Positions 46,345 to 57,822 of a stretch of DNA of 64,000 nt are shown one piece after another. Location of the stretch: NCBI GenBank assembly GCA_963745835.1, contig CAVUZH010000019.1, forward strand, positions 448,001-512,000, given 5' to 3'. The stretch's first letter is position 1. Each line of letters opens with the position of its first letter. The notes beneath the pieces were generated by a model that was not told the DNA's origin, did no database searches, and saw only the letters and a list, made by a program, of their open reading frames with translations. Position numbers and translations under genes: made by a program. This DNA comes from an uncultured delta proteobacterium (GTDB lineage: Bacteria > Desulfobacterota > Binatia > UBA9968).

Positions 46345-47325
46345 ATGATCCCAATGATGAATACGTACGACACGATTCGCACGAGTTTGCACTTCAATAA
46401 GTTCGTGGTCGGGGAGCTGCTTTTCGTCGAATACAAGTGCCCGATTGAACAGGAAGCCGCCGGCGTGTGGACGCCGATGGATTATTTTGTTCATGTGCTG
46501 AGCGGCAAAAAAACCTGGCGCACTACTGACGGAACTTGGATAGCAGAAAAGGGCCAGACTTTGTTTTTCAAGAAAGGCGCCGCCGTTGTCTACCAGGATT
46601 TCAAGGACGATTTCTGCGTTTTGGTGTTTTTCGTTTCGGATAATTTCATCCGGGATGTTGTCAGAGAAGTTTCCGGTCAATTGAGCAGCCGGCGCGACGC
46701 CAACGCGCTTCAAAAAGCCGCGATTCTAATCAATGCCGATGTGACTTTGGCCGCCTATTTTCAATCCATGCTGGCCTATTTCACTGGGACGGCAAAGCCG
46801 GCCGAAACTTTGTTGACGCTCAAGCTCAAGGAATTGATCGTGAGCATACTTTTGGGGGGCAGGAATCCCGAGCTCGCCGGTTACTTTCAATCGCTGCTCA
46901 AAAGCGATGCCCCTGTGCTGTCGCAAATCATGGAGGCGAATTTTTCTTACAATCTGGCGCTGGAAGATTTCGCAAGATTATCCCATCGCAGCCTGTCGAC
47001 GTTCAAACGCGACTTCCGCAAGTACTACAACCAATCCCCGGGCAAGTGGCTATTGCAAAAGCGACTGGACTATTCAGCCGTGCTGTTAAAAAATCCCGCG
47101 CTCAACGTTTCGCAAGTCGCCTTGGATTGCGGCTTCGAAGACCTCTCGCATTTCAGCCGGGCGTTCAAAGAAAAATTCGGCACCTCCCCGGCGCATTACC
47201 GTAAAGAAATTCCTGGTCGTGGCGTCTCGCGGCTTAGTGAAACAGACCTCTTGCAGGCTGCTCAAAAAGATCCAGAGGCGAGGCCCGCGAAGATCGATAA
47301 GCGGAGGCGTGCTCTTGCACGTTGA
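46345..47325 (+). CDS. AraC family regulator (ExsA-like N-terminal domain)
   Basis: RSLSTFKRDF, VALDCGFEDLSHFSRAFK; C-terminal tail runs into a repeat. Confidence 0.88.
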   Translation: MIPMMNTYDTIRTSLHFNKFVVGELLFVEYKCPIEQEAAGVWTPMDYFVHVLSGKKTWRTTDGTWIAEKGQTLFFKKGAAVVYQDFKDDFCVLVFFVSDNFIRDVVREVSGQLSSRRDANALQKAAILINADVTLAAYFQSMLAYFTGTAKPAETLLTLKLKELIVSILLGGRNPELAGYFQSLLKSDAPVLSQIMEANFSYNLALEDFARLSHRSLSTFKRDFRKYYNQSPGKWLLQKRLDYSAVLLKNPALNVSQVALDCGFEDLSHFSRAFKEKFGTSPAHYRKEIPGRGVSRLSETDLLQAAQKDPEARPAKIDKRRRALAR

Positions 47326-47376
47326 CGCGCAATCGGTCGAGAGCAACGAAGCCTATGGGCTTTTTCAGCAACCTGC
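47253..47376. repeat. ~124 bp palindromic (MITE/REP-like) element
   Basis: Terminal IR gcaggctgctcaaaaag / ctttttcagcaacctgc; central hairpin cgtgc-tctt-gcacg. Confidence 0.78.
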
Positions 47377-47477
47377 TGGAAAGAGCCGCTCAGTCAAACA
47401 TCTGGCCTCTCAAACAAAGCATCTTTCTCTGCCCCGCTTTATCTTTGGCAGCAGAATAAATCTTTAAGGAGCCAATT

Positions 47478-53444: not shown

Positions 53445-54331
53445 ATGCCCTCGATTCCTTCTCTTCACCTTCTCAAGGTCTTCCTGCGGGTCGTCAATGA
53501 GCGCGGTATCTCCAAAGCCGCGGCCGCCCTCAACGTAAGGCAGCCTTCGGTTTCCATGCAGATTCGTCAACTCGAAACCACCTTCGGGGTGAAATTGCTC
53601 GATCGTCTTGGGCAAGAGATCCATCCAACCCAAGCAGGAATGATGTTACGAGAATACGCGACGAAGATCCTTGACTTGGTTGATCACTTGCACGCCGACA
53701 TGGCGAATCTGCAGAACTTGAGAACCGGCCGGCTGGTAGTGGGTGGGAGTAAAGTACCAAGTGCTAGAAGATTCCTCTGGCCATTGCAACGTTTCAAAAG
53801 TTGTACGGGCAAACAGAGATTTTGATGGAAGTGGCAAGCAGCGATGCTGTGGAACAATGGGTTCTTGAGAACCACGTTGATTTTGCAATCGTCGTAGGCG
53901 ATCCCGTCGCACCTCAAATCGTGGAAGAACCGTTTTATAAGGAAGATTGGTACTGTTCTACCACCCAAACACCCCATGGAGAAAAGGAGATAGGTATCGG
54001 CTTATCAGATCTCAGAAATGCGCTTGTTTCTGCCGCACGATGGACGGGTGAAGACATATATTGAGAACTGCTTTGCAGAAAAAGGAATACCGCTCAATCG
54101 GAGGGTATCTCTCGGATCGATGGATTCAGTTAAGACTGCGATTGGTGCCGGATTAGGGGTATGGATCATGGCCAGATCGACAGTCGAAAGAGAAGTAAAA
54201 ACCGGTTTGCTATTGACAAAAGACTATGCGATCTGGAACTGAAGTATCCGGTAAACATCAACTATCATAAGGATAAGCATTTTTCCCGGCTAGCCACGGA
54301 ATTTCTTGCTGTTCTTAGAGAGTCTGTCTGA
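53445..54331 (+). pseudogene. LysR family regulator, multiple frameshifts
   Basis: HTH KAAAALNVRQPSVSMQIRQLE; substrate domain continues in ORFs 53801 and 54018. Confidence 0.78.
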
Positions 54332-54658
54332 ACGAGAATCTCACCCCGATTACCCTACAGCTCGTTGAGAAACAGAGATCGTGAAACGATCGCGATTACT
54401 TATACCCGGGATCAGGTTATACCGGGGATCAAGCGAGGGATGAGATATGCGATCTTCACTGGAAAATCGGCCTCGGTGATGATGCCGTTATCGATGAGCA
54501 GCTTTTGCCGCGTCGGTTTGCGGCTAAATTTGCAACCAACTCGAGACGGCATGAGCCACGCGGCGAAACGCTATCAGGTTGCTGATCTTATAAACGGAAT
54601 GGCCTCCGCGCGACCGGCTGTGGTACACCGGCGGAGACAAAACCTTAGGAGGCCAGCG

Positions 54659-55660
54659 ATGGAACATTTTGTTGGTATCGATTTACACAAGTACGTATCA
54701 CAATTGGCTGTGTTGAGGGAAAGCCGATCTCCTTCACAGTTACGTTTGGCGAATGATGTTGTGACGGTGGAACGGATTTTAAAGAAACTTCCCGAGGGGA
54801 GCAAGATAGCGGTAGAGGCGATGGGTTCGTGGTGGTGGATGGTTGAGCTAGTGCAAAAGACTGGCCACGAAGCGTTTTGGTCGCATCCAAGCAGACAAGG
54901 CGTTCGGTCAGCGCGATTGAAGTCCGATAAGGTCGATGCTTGGATATTGGCCAAGTTACTTAAGGCCGATCTGCTTCCCGCGGTGTAGATCCCTCCTGAA
55001 AACCAACGTCATATTCGCGAGCTTCTGACCCACCGGGCGCGCCTGGTGCGTCAACGAACCGCTGTGATCAACGAACTGCGTGCGGTTTACGCCAAGCGAA
55101 ACATCGATCCTCAAGCCAAGCTTCAGCGGGCCGAACCCCAAGTCTCGGGAGCCGAGGATCTCAGCGGCTATGCTCCGAGGATTGTGGGAGAAGATGTGGA
55201 GCTTTTGGGGTTTGTCAATGGGCAGATTGGAGGACTGGACAAGGAGTTGATGAAGATCGCTCTTGAAGATGGCTCGGCTAAGCGGCTGATGACGATCCCG
55301 GGGGTGGGAGCGGTGAGTGCGGTGGCGATGAGCTGCTGGATTGGCGAGATTGCTCGATTTTCTAATGCGAAAAAGTTGGCCAGCTACTTTGGGTAGGCGC
55401 CGCGGGTGCGCCAGAGCGCCGACACCGAACGCCATGGACATATCACCAAAGAAGGCGATCGCATGGTGCGCTCTCTGGTGATCCAAGCCGCCCTGGTGTA
55501 TACGCGAAGGGGTAAAGGCCTGAGCGTAGCATTATTTGGGGTGCTTAAAAGAAGAGGCAAGCCGATTGACCGGGTGGCGGCGGCCAACAAACTGTTGGGC
55601 GTGATTTTTCATATGCTCAAAGAATGCATCGACTATCAGGAATCCTCAGGCGTAGCGACG
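54659..55660 (+). pseudogene. IS110 recombinase (DEDD plus Transposase_20) with in-frame TAG stops
   Basis: FVGIDLHK, AVEA, KSDKVDA, LMTIPGVG, RQS; TAG at 54986-54988 and 55394-55396; 3' end approximate. Confidence 0.85.
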
Positions 55661-55664
55661 CACA

Positions 55665-55800
55665 GTGAGGCCGTACTTGTTCATGGTCGTAAGACCGAGT
55701 TGCTGATTGGGCAGCTGTGCCTCTCCAGAGGGAGAACCGCCGGATTTAAGATATGCGCTTTTAAAGGGCGCGAAGAGATGAGTGGGTCGCTACCCATACG
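55665..55800 (+). ncRNA. Putative bridge/seek RNA of the IS element
   Basis: Two guide-hairpin-guide modules matching the target (cttgttca, gttgctga) and the donor junction (taagat, agagatga); boundaries approximate. Confidence 0.72.
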
Positions 55801-55972
55801 TTGATCAGCCCGGCGATCAGAGCCGAAAAGGGGAATACCGGGAGTCATATTAAACTGAGATAGTGCGTTATAAGCGAAATACGGAGGTCTTTTTTTGAGA
55901 AATCATTGCAAAACAAAATCAAGCTGTAACCCGCTTGACTGAGCCGTTCCGTTTAGAGATGAAAAAGCCTTT

Positions 55973-56114
55973 GCGGGTTGCTCAAAAACCAAAGACGGGA
56001 CGCGCTACGAACCGTGATCGTTTCCCGTGAAAATCCACACGAGCATGACACGCTTCAGGATCCGATCTAGTGGGGCGACGCAACGAAGCTAATCGATGTT
56101 TTTCAGCGGCCCGT
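55973..56114. repeat. Palindromic element, same family as 47253-47376
   Basis: gcgggttgctcaaaaac ... gcaacgaagc ... gtttttcagcggcccgt. Confidence 0.7.
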
Positions 56115-56536
56115 TAGGCGCCTGATCGGAGACTGCCATAAAGGCGCTCGGGGGTAATGAGAACCAGATTTCTCTCTTCCTCACGCATCTGCCTGGCGAA
56201 TTCCTCGTCCGTTCCTTTGGGGGCGCGGCCCATGGCCGTGTAGAGCTCCTTCAGCCGCTTGATATGCGCTGGCGTGTCTTGCCACGGCTCGATGGAGGTC
56301 GGGCCCTCGACGGTGACATAGCGCCGCGTGTCGAGCTTGATCACTGTGATCGTCGCCCGGCCCGTTCTCTGAATGTTCTTGATTTTTACCGTCCATCCGC
56401 GCGATGCAAACCCGACCTTACCATCCAATACGGCGGTCGAGACGACGGTCGACTGCGCACGGCCGTTGGGCATGACGCTGATCGCGACGCCGGTGTGATT
56501 TTCTTGCAATAAGGGGAGCGCTTCTTTCCATTCCAT
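56114..56536 (-). CDS. Pyridoxamine 5'-phosphate oxidase-like (PPOX class) protein
   Basis: NGRAQSTVV, KIKNI.R, YVTVEG, MREEER..V.ITP. Confidence 0.75.
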   Translation of the reverse strand: MEWKEALPLLQENHTGVAISVMPNGRAQSTVVSTAVLDGKVGFASRGWTVKIKNIQRTGRATITVIKLDTRRYVTVEGPTSIEPWQDTPAHIKRLKELYTAMGRAPKGTDEEFARQMREEERNLVLITPERLYGSLRSGA

Positions 56537-56826
56537 CTAAATCGTTCCTCCGAACTTTGAAGTGTTGGGGGCCCTCAACCACGATGAACTCGGAACCTAT
56601 AACGCTGCATGCGACAATCAGTCAAGCCGGATTGCGGCTGATTTTTTGGAAGCGCTCGCTGCGGGGGTGAGACATGATAATCGTAAATTTTTTTTCCGAA
56701 CCTTACTTAGCGGGAAGTGCAGACTTGTCGAGAGACTCATCTATCCGTCATCACAGACGGTGTTGTAAACTTGTCCGTAAATCGTGAGTGGAATCGATTT
56801 GATGAAGTCGTCGTCGAACCGTACAA

Positions 56827-57822
56827 CTAATTTCCATAAAGTTTTTTGATGAAGCCGCTGTCCTCGATTTCTTTCAAGATCGACGGATCGATGAAGTCTC
56901 CGGGGTTGAGATTTTTCATCTGCGGCCGGGTTTTGGCGAGTTGATCGATGATGGTCTGAATTCCTTCGCGGTCCGGATAAGGGACCCGGCGAATCAGTCG
57001 CTGCGACATCTCGTCGTAAGCCACTTGCACCAGGGATAGATCGTCGAGCCGGGTATATTTTTTCAGCACGTTCAAGGCGACATCTTTGTTGGTTTTGAAG
57101 ACAAAGATTCCCTCGAGATAGGCCTTCATGAATCGGACGGTGACGTCGCGATTGGCCTGGATGAAGCTTTTTCGTGCGCCAAAACCGTGCATCGAATAAG
57201 CCACGCCGAGCTGGCTCAAGTCGGCGACAATGGTCGAGCCCTGCCGCTGGGCCAGTGTCGCGAAAGGCTCGGACAAAACGACGGCGTCCACCGCTTTGTT
57301 TTGTAGCGCCAGAAACTCTTCCTGCTCGCCGCCCACCTGAATAATCGCCACGTCTCTGTCGGGAACCAGGCCCCAACGCGTTAGCGCATAGCGGATTGAG
57401 AAATCGCTGGCGCCGCCCAACCGGGAAATACCGACTTTTCTTCCCTTTAGCATCTCGGGCTTTTTGATTTCCGGACTGCCGAGAATCTTGAACACGAAAG
57501 TATTGAGAGTCGCGGTGAGACCGACGAAGTCGCCGCCGCTGACATTAGCGTTGATGTTGGCGACGCCGGCGCTGGTGATGAACTGAATCTCACCGGCGAG
57601 AGCCGCCTGAACCGCGCGCGAGCTCACCGGCACAAAAAGAATTTCAGCGTCGACGCCGTGTTTCCGCGGCAGCTCGAGTTCCTTCATGATGTAAACCGGA
57701 TCGAATTGGATGCCGATTGAAGTATAGGCAGCGCGGATTTTGGGCAGGCTTTGCCCGAGCGCCTCTGCCGCGAATGCGACAACGAAAGCAAACCCGATCA
57801 GCAAGCCTTTCACTTTCAACAT
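56827..57822 (-). CDS. NitT/TauT-type ABC SBP
   Basis: Signal peptide; LKGRKVGISRLGGASDF; FIDPSILKEIEDSGF. Confidence 0.85.
   Translation of the reverse strand: MLKVKGLLIGFAFVVAFAAEALGQSLPKIRAAYTSIGIQFDPVYIMKELELPRKHGVDAEILFVPVSSRAVQAALAGEIQFITSAGVANINANVSGGDFVGLTATLNTFVFKILGSPEIKKPEMLKGRKVGISRLGGASDFSIRYALTRWGLVPDRDVAIIQVGGEQEEFLALQNKAVDAVVLSEPFATLAQRQGSTIVADLSQLGVAYSMHGFGARKSFIQANRDVTVRFMKAYLEGIFVFKTNKDVALNVLKKYTRLDDLSLVQVAYDEMSQRLIRRVPYPDREGIQTIIDQLAKTRPQMKNLNPGDFIDPSILKEIEDSGFIKKLYGN

What the first reader, a model, noticed from the sequence alone, without database searches (positions are those of the whole stretch)
55665..55800. Readable bridge RNA: four guide segments match both target and donor
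Seen, loop 1: cttgttca (55676-83; 7/8 to ctttttca, reverse complement of TGAaaaag), hairpin ggtc-gtaa-gacc, gttgctga (55699-706; 8/8 to left target plus core), closed by gaggc/gcctc. Loop 2: taagat (55747-52; reverse complement of atctta at the left end), hairpin gcgctttt/aaagggcgc, agagatga (55774-81; 8/8 to right end plus core). Both loops share a guide-tg-hairpin-ga-guide-ntggg layout. This matches the known bispecific bridge/seekRNA architecture and predicts the element's specificity. It is a candidate programmable recombinase once the ORF is repaired.
Basis: partly seen in the sequence, partly recalled or inferred. Interest (0 to 1): 0.85.

Follow-up and report, generated by a model that had tools for sequence, protein, structure and literature searches.

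The report
Decayed IS1111-type bridge RNA gene

Summary
All four short segments lie at the stated coordinates and match the element's own flanks and ends; none of 20,000 shuffles of the non-coding region gave all four.

The element (window 54585-55959, 2-bp TG core on each side) is an IS110-family insertion sequence of the IS1111 type. It has subterminal inverted repeats, a short left end, and a long non-coding region 3' of a DEDD/Ser recombinase gene.

The RNA (about 55652-55793) has a target loop and a donor loop. Its helices are supported by compensatory changes in 39 homologues.

In 84 related loci the two target guides change together with the flanking DNA across about 17 target classes, and 0 of 100,000 permutations reach the observed match.

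Corrections:
- The core is TG, not TGA.
- The proposed gaggc/gcctc closing stem is not conserved.
- The window copy is a pseudogene: two TAG stops, 8 missing bases, and 3 lesions in the RNA itself.
- An intact copy with four perfect 8/8 guides lies on contig C22 of the same genome.

It is a new member of a known kind. No expression data could be obtained.

The parts
54578..54582 (+). Left target half (LT) gttgc, outside the element
   Evidence: Identical to variable positions 1-5 of the left target guide at 55699-703. The same 5-mer flanks the C22 copy.
54583..54584 (+). Core TG, left copy
   Evidence: TG stands at the left junction in all 39 loci that have a left flank.
54585..55959 (+). Body of the insertion sequence (1375 bp); decayed copy
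   Evidence: 96% identical to the C22 copy, with identity ending at the shared target on both sides. Compared with C22 it has 47 substitutions and 8 missing bases.
54591..54603 (+). Left subterminal inverted repeat TAAACGGAATGGC
   Evidence: Reverse complement of 55943-55955 with 1 mismatch. The TAAACGG/CCGTTTA pair lies about 1370 bp apart in most relatives of >=53% identity.
54659..55668 (+). Recombinase pseudogene (DEDD RuvC-like domain plus Transposase_20/Ser domain)
   Evidence: In-frame TAG stops at 54986-88 and 55394-96, where C22 has TGG and TTG. Bases are missing after 54885, 54895, 54906, 55525 (two), 55537 and 55642. The ancestral stop TGA 55666-68 is out of frame here, so the open frame runs on to 55804. 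The intact C22 protein P0001 hits PF01548, PF02371 and NF033542.
55652..55793 (+). Bridge/seekRNA core, from the 5' to the 3' strand of enclosing helix P0; conserved sequence continues to about 55815
   Evidence: Covariance model R1 scores this copy at 164.2 bits and the C22 copy at 174.5 bits. Of 38 pairs, 98.4% of cells are paired and 13 pairs show changes on both sides, against a shuffled mean of 6.6.
55676..55683 (+). Right target guide (RTG) cttGttca; reverse complement of TG+aaaaag at 7/8
   Evidence: C22 and 17 other loci have ctttttca. The G at 55679 is unique to this copy. This segment covaries with the right flank.
55684..55697 (+). Hairpin P2 inside the target loop (TGGTC gtaa GACCG)
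   Evidence: Five pairs, 97.9% of cells paired.
55699..55706 (+). Left target guide (LTG) gttgc+TG+a
   Evidence: 8/8 to 54578-85. The five variable positions equal the left flank in 32 of 39 loci.
55722..55735 (+). Hairpin P3 between the two loops
   Evidence: Four of 5 pairs change on both sides.
55747..55753 (+). Right donor guide (RDG) taagat-a; complementary to TG+atctta of the left end; one C lost
   Evidence: The C of GATCA is present in 38 of 39 aligned sequences and missing here. C22 has taagatca, 8/8.
55754..55772 (+). Hairpin P5 inside the donor loop
   Evidence: Five pairs, 99% of cells paired.
55774..55781 (+). Left donor guide (LDG) agaga+TG+a
   Evidence: 8/8 to 55955-62. The five end-specific bases equal the right end in 64 of 65 loci, including one compensatory class ATGGA/ATGGA.
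55935..55940 (+). -35-like hexamer TTGACT of a junction promoter
   Evidence: TTGACA or TTGACT stands at the same distance (17-nt spacer, then GA|TG) in 59 of 64 loci. The -10 GATGAT exists only when the right end is joined to the left end. This is inferred, not shown.
55943..55955 (+). Right subterminal inverted repeat GCCGTTCCGTTTA
   Evidence: partner of 54591-54603.
55960..55961 (+). Core TG, right copy
55962..55967 (+). Right target half (RT) aaaaag, outside the element
   Evidence: Matches the reverse complement of the RTG.
47359..47373 (-). Unoccupied perfect target site ggttgcTGaaaaagc, at one end of a roughly 125-bp dispersed palindromic repeat
   Evidence: The only exact match in the genome. 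Its right side is homologous to the right flank of the C22 copy.

Best explanation
Window 54585-55959 is a decayed copy of an IS110-family insertion sequence of the IS1111 type.

The following mechanism is inferred by homology with IS621, ISEc11 and related elements; it is not shown here. The RNA binds the DEDD/Ser recombinase and presents two internal loops.
- Loop 1 reads the target. Its 5' segment pairs with the top strand of TG+right flank. Its 3' segment pairs with the bottom strand of left flank+TG.
- Loop 2 reads the circularised element in the same way. Its 5' segment pairs with TG+left end; its 3' segment pairs with right end+TG.
- The recombinase then exchanges strands at the TG core and inserts the element without a target duplication.

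The natural target, GTTGC-TG-AAAAAG, is one end of a roughly 125-bp palindromic repeat present in many copies in this genome.

The window copy is dead on its own: two nonsense codons, frameshifts, one broken stem pair, one guide substitution and one guide deletion. Its ends and flanks are still those read by the intact sister copy on contig C22, so it could in principle be moved in trans.
For: SHOWN HERE
1. All four guide matches are present. The sister copy, which has different flanking genes, sits in the same 18-bp target and has four 8/8 matches.
2. Protein family. P0001 hits PF01548 (E 4.9e-18) and PF02371 (E 5e-24). It hits NF033542 'IS110 family RNA-guided transposase' at 246.3 bits against a cut-off of 140. 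It hits the IS621 transposase 8wt6 (E 4.9e-14) and ISCro4 9t56, with the D, E, D, D and Ser motifs aligned.
3. IS1111-type anatomy. The subterminal repeats are 13 bp. The left end is 74 nt before the ATG, against 291 nt after the ancestral stop. The recombinase is 338 aa.
4. Guide-flank covariation. 84 loci were examined and 52 had the RNA by a regular-expression anchor.
   - Left guide 5/5 in 32 of 39 loci with a left flank.
   - Right guide >=5/6 in 37 of 43 loci with a right flank.
   - 17 distinct guide pairs: cognate mean 9.8 of 11, against 3.5 for 272 non-cognate pairs.
   - 0 of 100,000 permutations reached the observed sum.
   - A second clade at 43-48% protein identity adds about 7 more target classes that obey the same rule.
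5. Donor side. The LDG equals the right end in 64 of 65 loci, with one compensatory class. The RDG follows left-end changes (tcTTa/taAga versus tcTCa/gaGa; tcACa/gtGa).
6. RNA structure. 13 of 38 pairs change on both sides (shuffled mean 6.6, 0 of 500 shuffles as high; slid controls 5 or fewer). Helix P0 has 5 of 8 such pairs and P3 has 4 of 5.
7. The model finds the RNA directly after the ORF in 25 of 37 further sources, and only at the two full copies in the host genome.

FROM PAPERS
- Siddiquee 2024 (PMC11187229, sections 6, 9 and 12 read): IS1111 features and guide order.
- Durrant 2024 (PMC11208160, passages): a bridge RNA is predicted in the right end of 93% of IS1111 elements.
Against: - No expression, processing or binding data.
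- The single-sequence fold is not better than shuffles (z -0.80).
- No Rfam family matches.
- The promoter/terminator scan of 54500-56050 found nothing above the shuffles.
- Related elements share guides and targets by descent, so loci are not independent. The weight rests on the number of different target classes, not on the locus counts.
- Exceptions exist. L088's left guide matches 2/5. 7 of 39 left and 6 of 43 right matches are imperfect. The RTG register is shifted by one base in some classes. The right-junction core is TC or AG in two classes.
- The catalytic motif reads GL-P----SA rather than the usual SG/TG.
- Most of the donor guides cannot covary because the ends are nearly invariant.
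Confidence: 0.9

Rival explanations
1. Only loop 1 works as a guide (a seekRNA in the narrow sense). The element's ends are recognised by the protein through the subterminal inverted repeats, and loop 2 is scaffold whose resemblance to the ends has some other cause.
For: The LDG and the right end are invariant in all but one class, so they can hardly covary. Beyond the invariant GATCA, the RDG matches the left end by only 0-3 further bases in several classes (L076, L079, L083). Siddiquee 2024 reports that short seekRNAs of 74-96 nt carrying the target matches are the predominant species, and that a 58-nt form sufficed for ISEc21 (PMC11187229, sections 9 and 12).
Against: The one class whose right end changed (ATGGA) changed its LDG identically. 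RDG changes track left-end changes in the L017, L088 and L122 classes. Loop 2 repeats the layout of loop 1 base for base. In IS621 both loops are shown to guide (PMC11208160, abstract and passages).
Confidence: 0.07
2. The conserved region acts as DNA, for example as recombinase binding sites or an internal copy of end and target sequences, and not as RNA.
For: No transcript was observed here. The sequence overlaps the end of the ORF.
Against: Compensatory changes keep Watson-Crick and G-U pairs in five helices. G-U pairs make sense only in RNA. The family's RNA has been purified with its recombinase in relatives (PMC11187229, abstract and section 9).
Confidence: 0.02
3. The matches are chance in a GC-rich non-coding tail.
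For: 8-mers such as GTTGCTGA occur 7 times in the window.
Against: 0 of 20,000 shuffles give all four matches. There is covariation across about 17 target classes.
Confidence: 0.01

Closest known systems
IS1111-group elements with a seekRNA (ISEc11, ISPa11, ISKpn4, ISPst6; Siddiquee et al. 2024, PMC11187229)
   Same: - Subterminal inverted repeats.
- Long non-coding region downstream of tnp.
- Recombinase of 330-350 aa (338 here; ISEc11 is 339).
- The segment complementary to the top strand lies 5' of the one complementary to the bottom strand.
- Insertion at a TG in a specific, repeated target.
- RNA length between the outer helix strands is about 145 nt, against 'long seekRNA' forms of 148-172 nt (table seen in PMC13604230).
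- A junction promoter is expected (the ISEc11 Pjunc paper was seen only as a reference title).
   Different: - Protein identity to anything named in the plasmid collection is at most 42%.
- The motif is GL-P----SA instead of S(T)G.
- The outer helix of the RNA uses the last codons of tnp.
- Placement of the recombinase on the IS1111 branch was not tested.
IS621 bridge RNA and recombinase (Durrant 2024, PMC11208160; Hiraizumi 2024, PMC11208158; PDB 8wt6)
   Same: - A two-loop bispecific RNA with the target loop 5' of the donor loop.
- Each loop has two guides around a hairpin.
- A 2-nt core.
- DEDD plus Ser active-site motifs aligned.
- A REP-like target.
   Different: - The RNA is 3' of the gene instead of 5'.
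- The order of guides within each loop is reversed.
- The core is TG, not CT.
- The inverted repeats are long.
- Extra product-junction complementarity lies next to LTG/LDG here, whereas the IS621 handshake guides lie next to RTG/RDG.

Membership tests
IS110 family (DEDD recombinases) | N-terminal DEDD RuvC-like domain plus C-terminal Transposase_20 domain | tested here: met
   PF01548 E 4.9e-18 and PF02371 E 5e-24 on P0001. NF033542 scores 246.3 bits against a cut-off of 140.
IS110 family (DEDD recombinases) | Catalytic D, E, D, D and Ser (IS621 D11, E60, D102, D105, S241; numbering from PMC11208158) | tested here: met
   The motifs GIDLHK (D8), LEAMG (E53), KSDKVDA (D91, D94) and RQSA (S254) align with GIDTAK, IEATG, KTDTVDA and ESG of 8wt6. 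The correspondence was judged at motif level, not by structure.
IS1111 group | Subterminal inverted repeats of 7-17 bp | tested here: met
   13 bp with 1 mismatch, 54591-603 against 55943-55. The second clade has a perfect 14-bp repeat, TAAGCACGTTGGCC.
IS1111 group | Short left end, long right end, with the non-coding RNA region downstream of tnp | tested here: met
   74 nt before the ATG and 291 nt after the ancestral stop. Model R1 hits directly after the ORF.
IS1111 group | Recombinase of 330-350 aa with a GL-P----S(T)G motif | tested here: inconclusive
   The length is 338 aa, which meets the range. The motif is GLAPRVRQSA, so Ser is followed by Ala. Siddiquee notes occasional TA, but SA is not mentioned in the section read.
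IS1111 group | Recombinase branches with IS1111 in a phylogeny | not tested
The plasmid hits are labelled only 'IS110 family'.
seekRNA / bridge RNA | [quoted passage not shown] | tested here: met
   RTG 55676-83 lies 5' and LTG 55699-706 lies 3'.
seekRNA / bridge RNA | Guides covary with the target across orthologues | tested here: met
   (0 of 100,000 permutations; about 17 target classes).
seekRNA / bridge RNA | A second loop complementary to the joined ends of the element | tested here: met
   RDG and LDG are both 8/8 in C22. The LDG equals the right end in 64 of 65 loci, with a compensatory class.
seekRNA / bridge RNA | The RNA is made, binds the recombinase and is needed for transposition | not testable with these tools
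No experiment was possible.
Rfam families | Match to a curated covariance model | tested here: not met
   No hit at E<=1 in 53500-57000. No hit at gathering score in the whole window.

The most novel reading that the evidence does not exclude
IS1111-type bridge RNAs may carry a mirror image of the IS621 'handshake'.

The base or bases just 3' of the core in the LEFT guides are complementary to the product junctions. The LTG is always followed by AT, which are the first bases of the left end. The base after the LDG's AGAGATG equals the first target base right of the core in 14 of 20 right-flank groups (15 after correcting one false hit), and all four bases are used.

Three other observations fit with this: the reversed guide order; an enclosing helix P0 that ties both loops to the 3' end of the tnp message; and junctions where the left core is TG but the right core is TC or AG. 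Together they would mean that this branch exchanges strands with the opposite polarity or order to IS621, and that the position after the LDG must be programmed together with the target.
Probability: 0.3. Interest if true: 0.55.

Novelty: new member of a known kind. Interest (0 to 1): 0.4.

Why it matters
It shows that a bridge RNA can be read correctly from raw sequence, and that the reading can be checked purely by comparison.

Practically, the family offers one conserved RNA scaffold that has been naturally retargeted to about 17 different sites. It comes with an intact recombinase gene (C22 copy) and a known empty target in the same genome. That is a ready-made data set for the rules of guide programming in the less-studied IS1111 branch: guide length, register, tolerance of core mismatches, and the position after the LDG.

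For the genome itself, it explains a pseudogene, a dispersed repeat used as a landing pad, and likely sites of future insertions.

Tried and rejected
- translated one base out of frame. It was redone correctly.
- The single-sequence fold gave z -0.80, which is no evidence either way. The structure argument rests on the alignment instead.
- Rfam gave no hit.
- The promoter/terminator scan of the integrated copy found 1 promoter-like and 2 terminator-like sites, no more than in the shuffles. I therefore name no internal promoter for the RNA.
The G at 55670 that makes it is unique to this copy (consensus C, 37 of 39).
- The local hairpin TGGGT/ACCCA has 1 of 5 pairs changed on both sides. It is less supported than the long-range helix P0, which has 5 of 8. 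I prefer P0 but cannot exclude alternation.
- A further helix, CGCCGG/CCGGCG (55738-43/55810-15), has 2 of 6 such pairs. It would be a pseudoknot with P0 or an alternative to the 3-bp CCG/TGG closure, which never varies.
- The genome-contig scan gave only one near-complete close relative (L024, no left flank). The search of 61 related genomes gave two (G003, and G045 partial). The metagenome scan supplied the data.
- The plasmid collection gave no relative above 42% identity and no label that would settle IS1111 versus IS110 placement.
- One search returned nothing because of my own faulty pattern. It was corrected. In one search the row for L076 uses a false right end; one search gives the true one.
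- L088's left guide fits its flank only with a 1-nt shift (2/5 without it). I left it as a miss.
- Loci dropped before the counts: those without the anchor motif (32 of 84; 3 of 27) and those whose contig ends before a flank.
- Supplementary files were not opened. Durrant's Supplementary Table 5 and Siddiquee's Supplementary Figs 2, 6 and 7 could show whether a close relative or a P0-like helix has already been described.

Full report
**1. What is in the sequence**

Their partners are there too. gttgcTGA stands at 54578-85, directly before tcttataaacgg. agagaTGA stands at 55955-62, followed by aaaag.

I shuffled the 164-nt region 55652-55815 20,000 times. The four matches appeared singly in 61, 38, 487 and 494 shuffles. 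Two or more appeared in 17 shuffles and all four in none.

**2. The element**

Between the two TG dinucleotides lies a 1375-bp element. Its features:
- A 74-nt leader.
- A gene that translates as an IS110-family recombinase, interrupted by two TAG codons (54986-88 and 55394-96).
- A 291-nt tail.
- 13-bp subterminal inverted repeats (54591-603 and 55943-55).

The host genome (7.28 Mb, 25 contigs) holds a second full copy on contig C22. It is 96% identical and lies in a different gene neighbourhood. There are also two internal fragments of about 500 bp.

The C22 gene is open and encodes 338 aa from MEHFVG (P0001). P0001 matches:
- PF01548 and PF02371.
- NF033542 'IS110 family RNA-guided transposase', 246 bits against a cut-off of 140.
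- The IS621 and ISCro4 transposases in the PDB, with the D, E, D, D and Ser motifs aligned.

Compared with C22, the window copy has 47 substitutions and lacks 8 bases, 6 of them C. The lesions comprise two nonsense changes (TGG to TAG, TTG to TAG), two locally compensated frameshift patches, and a frameshift at 55642 that hides the ancestral stop at 55666-68.

In the RNA region the window copy differs from C22 at four places:
- G at 55670 breaks a stem pair.
- G at 55679 lies in the right target guide.
- One change lies in a hairpin loop (55690).
- A C is lost after 55752, inside the right donor guide. That C is present in 38 of 39 homologues.

In the C22 copy all four guides are 8/8.

**3. 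The target**

Both copies sit in CAGGTTGC-TG-AAAAAGCC, and the flanks differ beyond that.

The 15-mer spanning the empty site occurs exactly once more in the genome, at window 47359-73 on the minus strand. There it forms one tip of a roughly 125-bp palindromic repeat (gcaggYtgctgaaaaag ... ctttttgagcagcctgc). A 131-nt query of that repeat gives 40 scored matches out of 116 candidates.

The right flank of the C22 copy is a clear copy of this repeat. The right flank of the window copy resembles it only weakly.

That IS110-family elements land in REP-like repeats is known. I saw this only as reference titles and in abstracts listed.

**4. Do guides follow targets?**

Relatives were collected as follows:
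- A same-genus genome gave a 76%-identical element, L017.
- The species-genome collection gave one at 95%, L024.
- A metagenome scan gave 80 loci at 43-98% identity.

L017 already shows natural retargeting. Its flanks are tagcc|TG|atctca... and ...agaga|TG|tccccttt. Its guides are aaggggac (reverse complement gtcccctt) and tagcctga. This also fixes the core as TG, not TGA.

Of the 84 loci examined, 52 carried the RNA by an anchor motif.
- Left guide: the five variable positions equal the left flank in 32 of 39 loci that have one.
- Right guide: it fits at >=5 of 6 positions in 37 of 43.
- Among 17 distinct guide pairs, the cognate score averages 9.8 of 11. For 272 non-cognate combinations it averages 3.5. 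The high non-cognate values come from near-identical classes.
- No permutation out of 100,000 reaches the observed sum.

Loci are related, so the real weight lies in the number of different targets:
- GTTGC or GCTGC|AAAAAG
- TAGCC|TCCCCT
- CAGAA|TCCCCT
- CCGAA|TTTTWA
- GCCGA|GGCC
- GGCAA|GGCC
- TTAAT|CGTCCT
- TGAAT|(C)TCCT
- ACCTA|AAAAAG
- the poorly fitting L088

A covariance model built from 39 distinct RNAs found the RNA directly after the ORF in 25 of 37 further sources. These include a clade at 43-48% protein identity. Of the 12 sources without a hit, several end before the RNA would start; the others are distant (22-35% identity). That clade adds about 7 more classes that follow the same rule. 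One of them lies in a conserved ABC-transporter binding-protein gene.

In the host genome the model hits only the two full copies, so there are no orphan RNA genes.

**5. Donor side**

The LDG (AGAGA+TG) equals the right end in 64 of 65 loci. The single miss is a false end call for L076. The one class whose end is ATGGA has ATGGA in the guide, which is a compensatory change.

The RDG follows the left end:
- taagatca with TGatctta.
- gagatca with TGatctc.
- gtgatca with TGatcac.
- tgacatca with TGatgtca, and acacatca with TGatgtg, in the second clade.

In several classes only GATCA pairs.

**6. RNA structure**

RNAalifold and explicit pair counts support the following helices.

| Helix | Window coordinates | Support |
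|---|---|---|
| P0, outer helix | 55652-59 / 55786-93 | 5 of 8 pairs changed on both sides |
| P1a, closes the target loop | 55660-66 / 55714-20 | helices P1a+P1b counted together: 2 of 12 pairs changed on both sides, 98.9% of cells paired |
| P1b, closes the target loop | 55669-73 / 55708-12 | as above |
| P2, hairpin in the target loop | 55684-97 | 97.9% of cells paired |
| P3, hairpin between the loops | 55722-35 | 4 of 5 pairs changed on both sides |
| Donor-loop closure, CCG/TGG | 55740-42 / 55783-85 | never varies |
| P5, hairpin in the donor loop | 55754-72 | 99% of cells paired |

Overall, 98.4% of cells are paired. 13 pairs have double changes, against a shuffled mean of 6.6 (0 of 500 shuffles as high) and at most 5 in the slid controls.

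**7. How it most likely works**

Shown here: the anatomy, the family membership of the protein, the covariation of guides with DNA, and the conserved fold.

Inferred from IS621 and the ISEc11-type elements (PMC11208160 abstract and passages; PMC11208158 passages; PMC11187229 sections 6, 9 and 12):
- The RNA binds the recombinase.
- Loop 1 pairs with both strands of the target and loop 2 with both strands of the circle junction.
- The Ser/DEDD composite sites exchange strands at TG.

A -35-like TTGAC(A/T) lies at a fixed distance from the right tip in 59 of 64 loci. With a 17-nt spacer, the -10 would be GA|TG|AT, which is complete only in the circle. This fits the junction promoters described for the family (review passage). 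It implies that tnp and the RNA are made as one transcript from the circle. That is inference.

**8. Comparison and novelty**

The element meets the tested IS1111-group features: inverted repeats, 3' RNA, protein length and guide order. Two points remain open. The motif is SA instead of S(T)G, and the phylogenetic placement was not tested.

The kind has been known since 2024. Durrant et al. predicted bridge RNAs in the right end of 93% of ISfinder IS1111 elements. I therefore rate it a new member of a known kind.

What may be new is in the details:
- The base after the LDG tracks the first target base.
- Non-TG cores occur at the right junction only.
- The register shifts by one base in some classes.
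- Helix P0 reaches into the ORF.

A search for IS1111 together with handshake found 4 papers. In the passages I read from three of them, handshake guides are treated only for IS621. I did not read the fourth, and supplements were closed.

**9. Verdict**

The copy in the window is a relic, and the working element is on C22. Confidence is 0.9 that this is a bridge/seekRNA gene of an IS1111-type element. Interest is 0.4.

Noticed in passing
window 47240-47385 (-), and at least 40 places in the genome: A roughly 125-bp dispersed palindromic repeat with inverted tips (gcaggYtgctgaaaaag ... ctttttgagcagcctgc). It serves as the landing pad of the element. A 131-nt query gave 40 scored matches out of 116 candidates. 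No Rfam family matches it.
   Followed up: partly
window 47359-47373 (-): The only exact unoccupied copy of the 15-bp target in the genome lies 7 kb from the decayed element. Seven further sites differ by one base; four of them are GGCTGC..., the variant read by the gCtgctga guide of relatives such as L024 and L048.
   Followed up: partly
L081, L083, L090, L091 and L103 (right junctions): The left junction has TG, but the right junction has TC (four loci) or AG (L103). The right target guide matches the TC. This suggests insertion into targets whose core differs from the donor's, with the donor core kept on the left.
   Followed up: partly
window 55781-55782 and the homologous position in 65 loci: The base after AGAGATG in the left donor guide equals the first target base right of the core in 14 of 20 right-flank groups, with all four bases used. 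The exceptions all have T in the target and A or G in the RNA. The left target guide is always followed by AT, the first bases of the left end.
   Followed up: partly
L098, L105, L107, L108, L110, L112, L114, L116, L121, L123: One clade inserts at ATCT-TG-TCNACGT inside a conserved protein-coding stretch. The reverse strand reads KILKGAKPADLP, which I recall as typical of ABC-transporter substrate-binding proteins. The guide carries a mismatch at the variable third-codon position.
   Followed up: no
window 55857-55896; L005, L006, L007 (G000 C14, C13, C3): A 40-bp stretch of the right non-coding region is 88% identical to part of another repeated element, present in three copies. That element carries a 459-aa ORF on the opposite strand (L006 1409-2788). 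I did not run it against Pfam; from its sequence I guess it is a DDE-type transposase.
   Followed up: partly
window 54885-55752: Six of the 8 bases that the window copy lacks relative to C22 are C, and they are not in homopolymer runs. This could be genuine decay or a systematic read or polishing error confined to this copy. It cannot be decided without reads.
   Followed up: no
G000 C13:575704-576690 (L021): A third IS110-family gene in the genome, 35% identical and with an open frame. It is not recognised by RNA model R1, so it presumably carries a different guide RNA.
   Followed up: no
G000 C22:64763-65263 (L003) and C3:491052-491541 (L004): Two internal fragments of the recombinase gene, about 500 bp each and 96-97% identical to the query, with stops and without ends or RNA. 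One lies 5 kb from the intact copy.
   Followed up: no
window 55935-55961: TTGACT, a 17-nt spacer, then GA|TG. Joined to the left end this gives a -10 of GATGAT, so the promoter would be complete only in the excised circle. It is conserved in 59 of 64 loci.
   Followed up: partly
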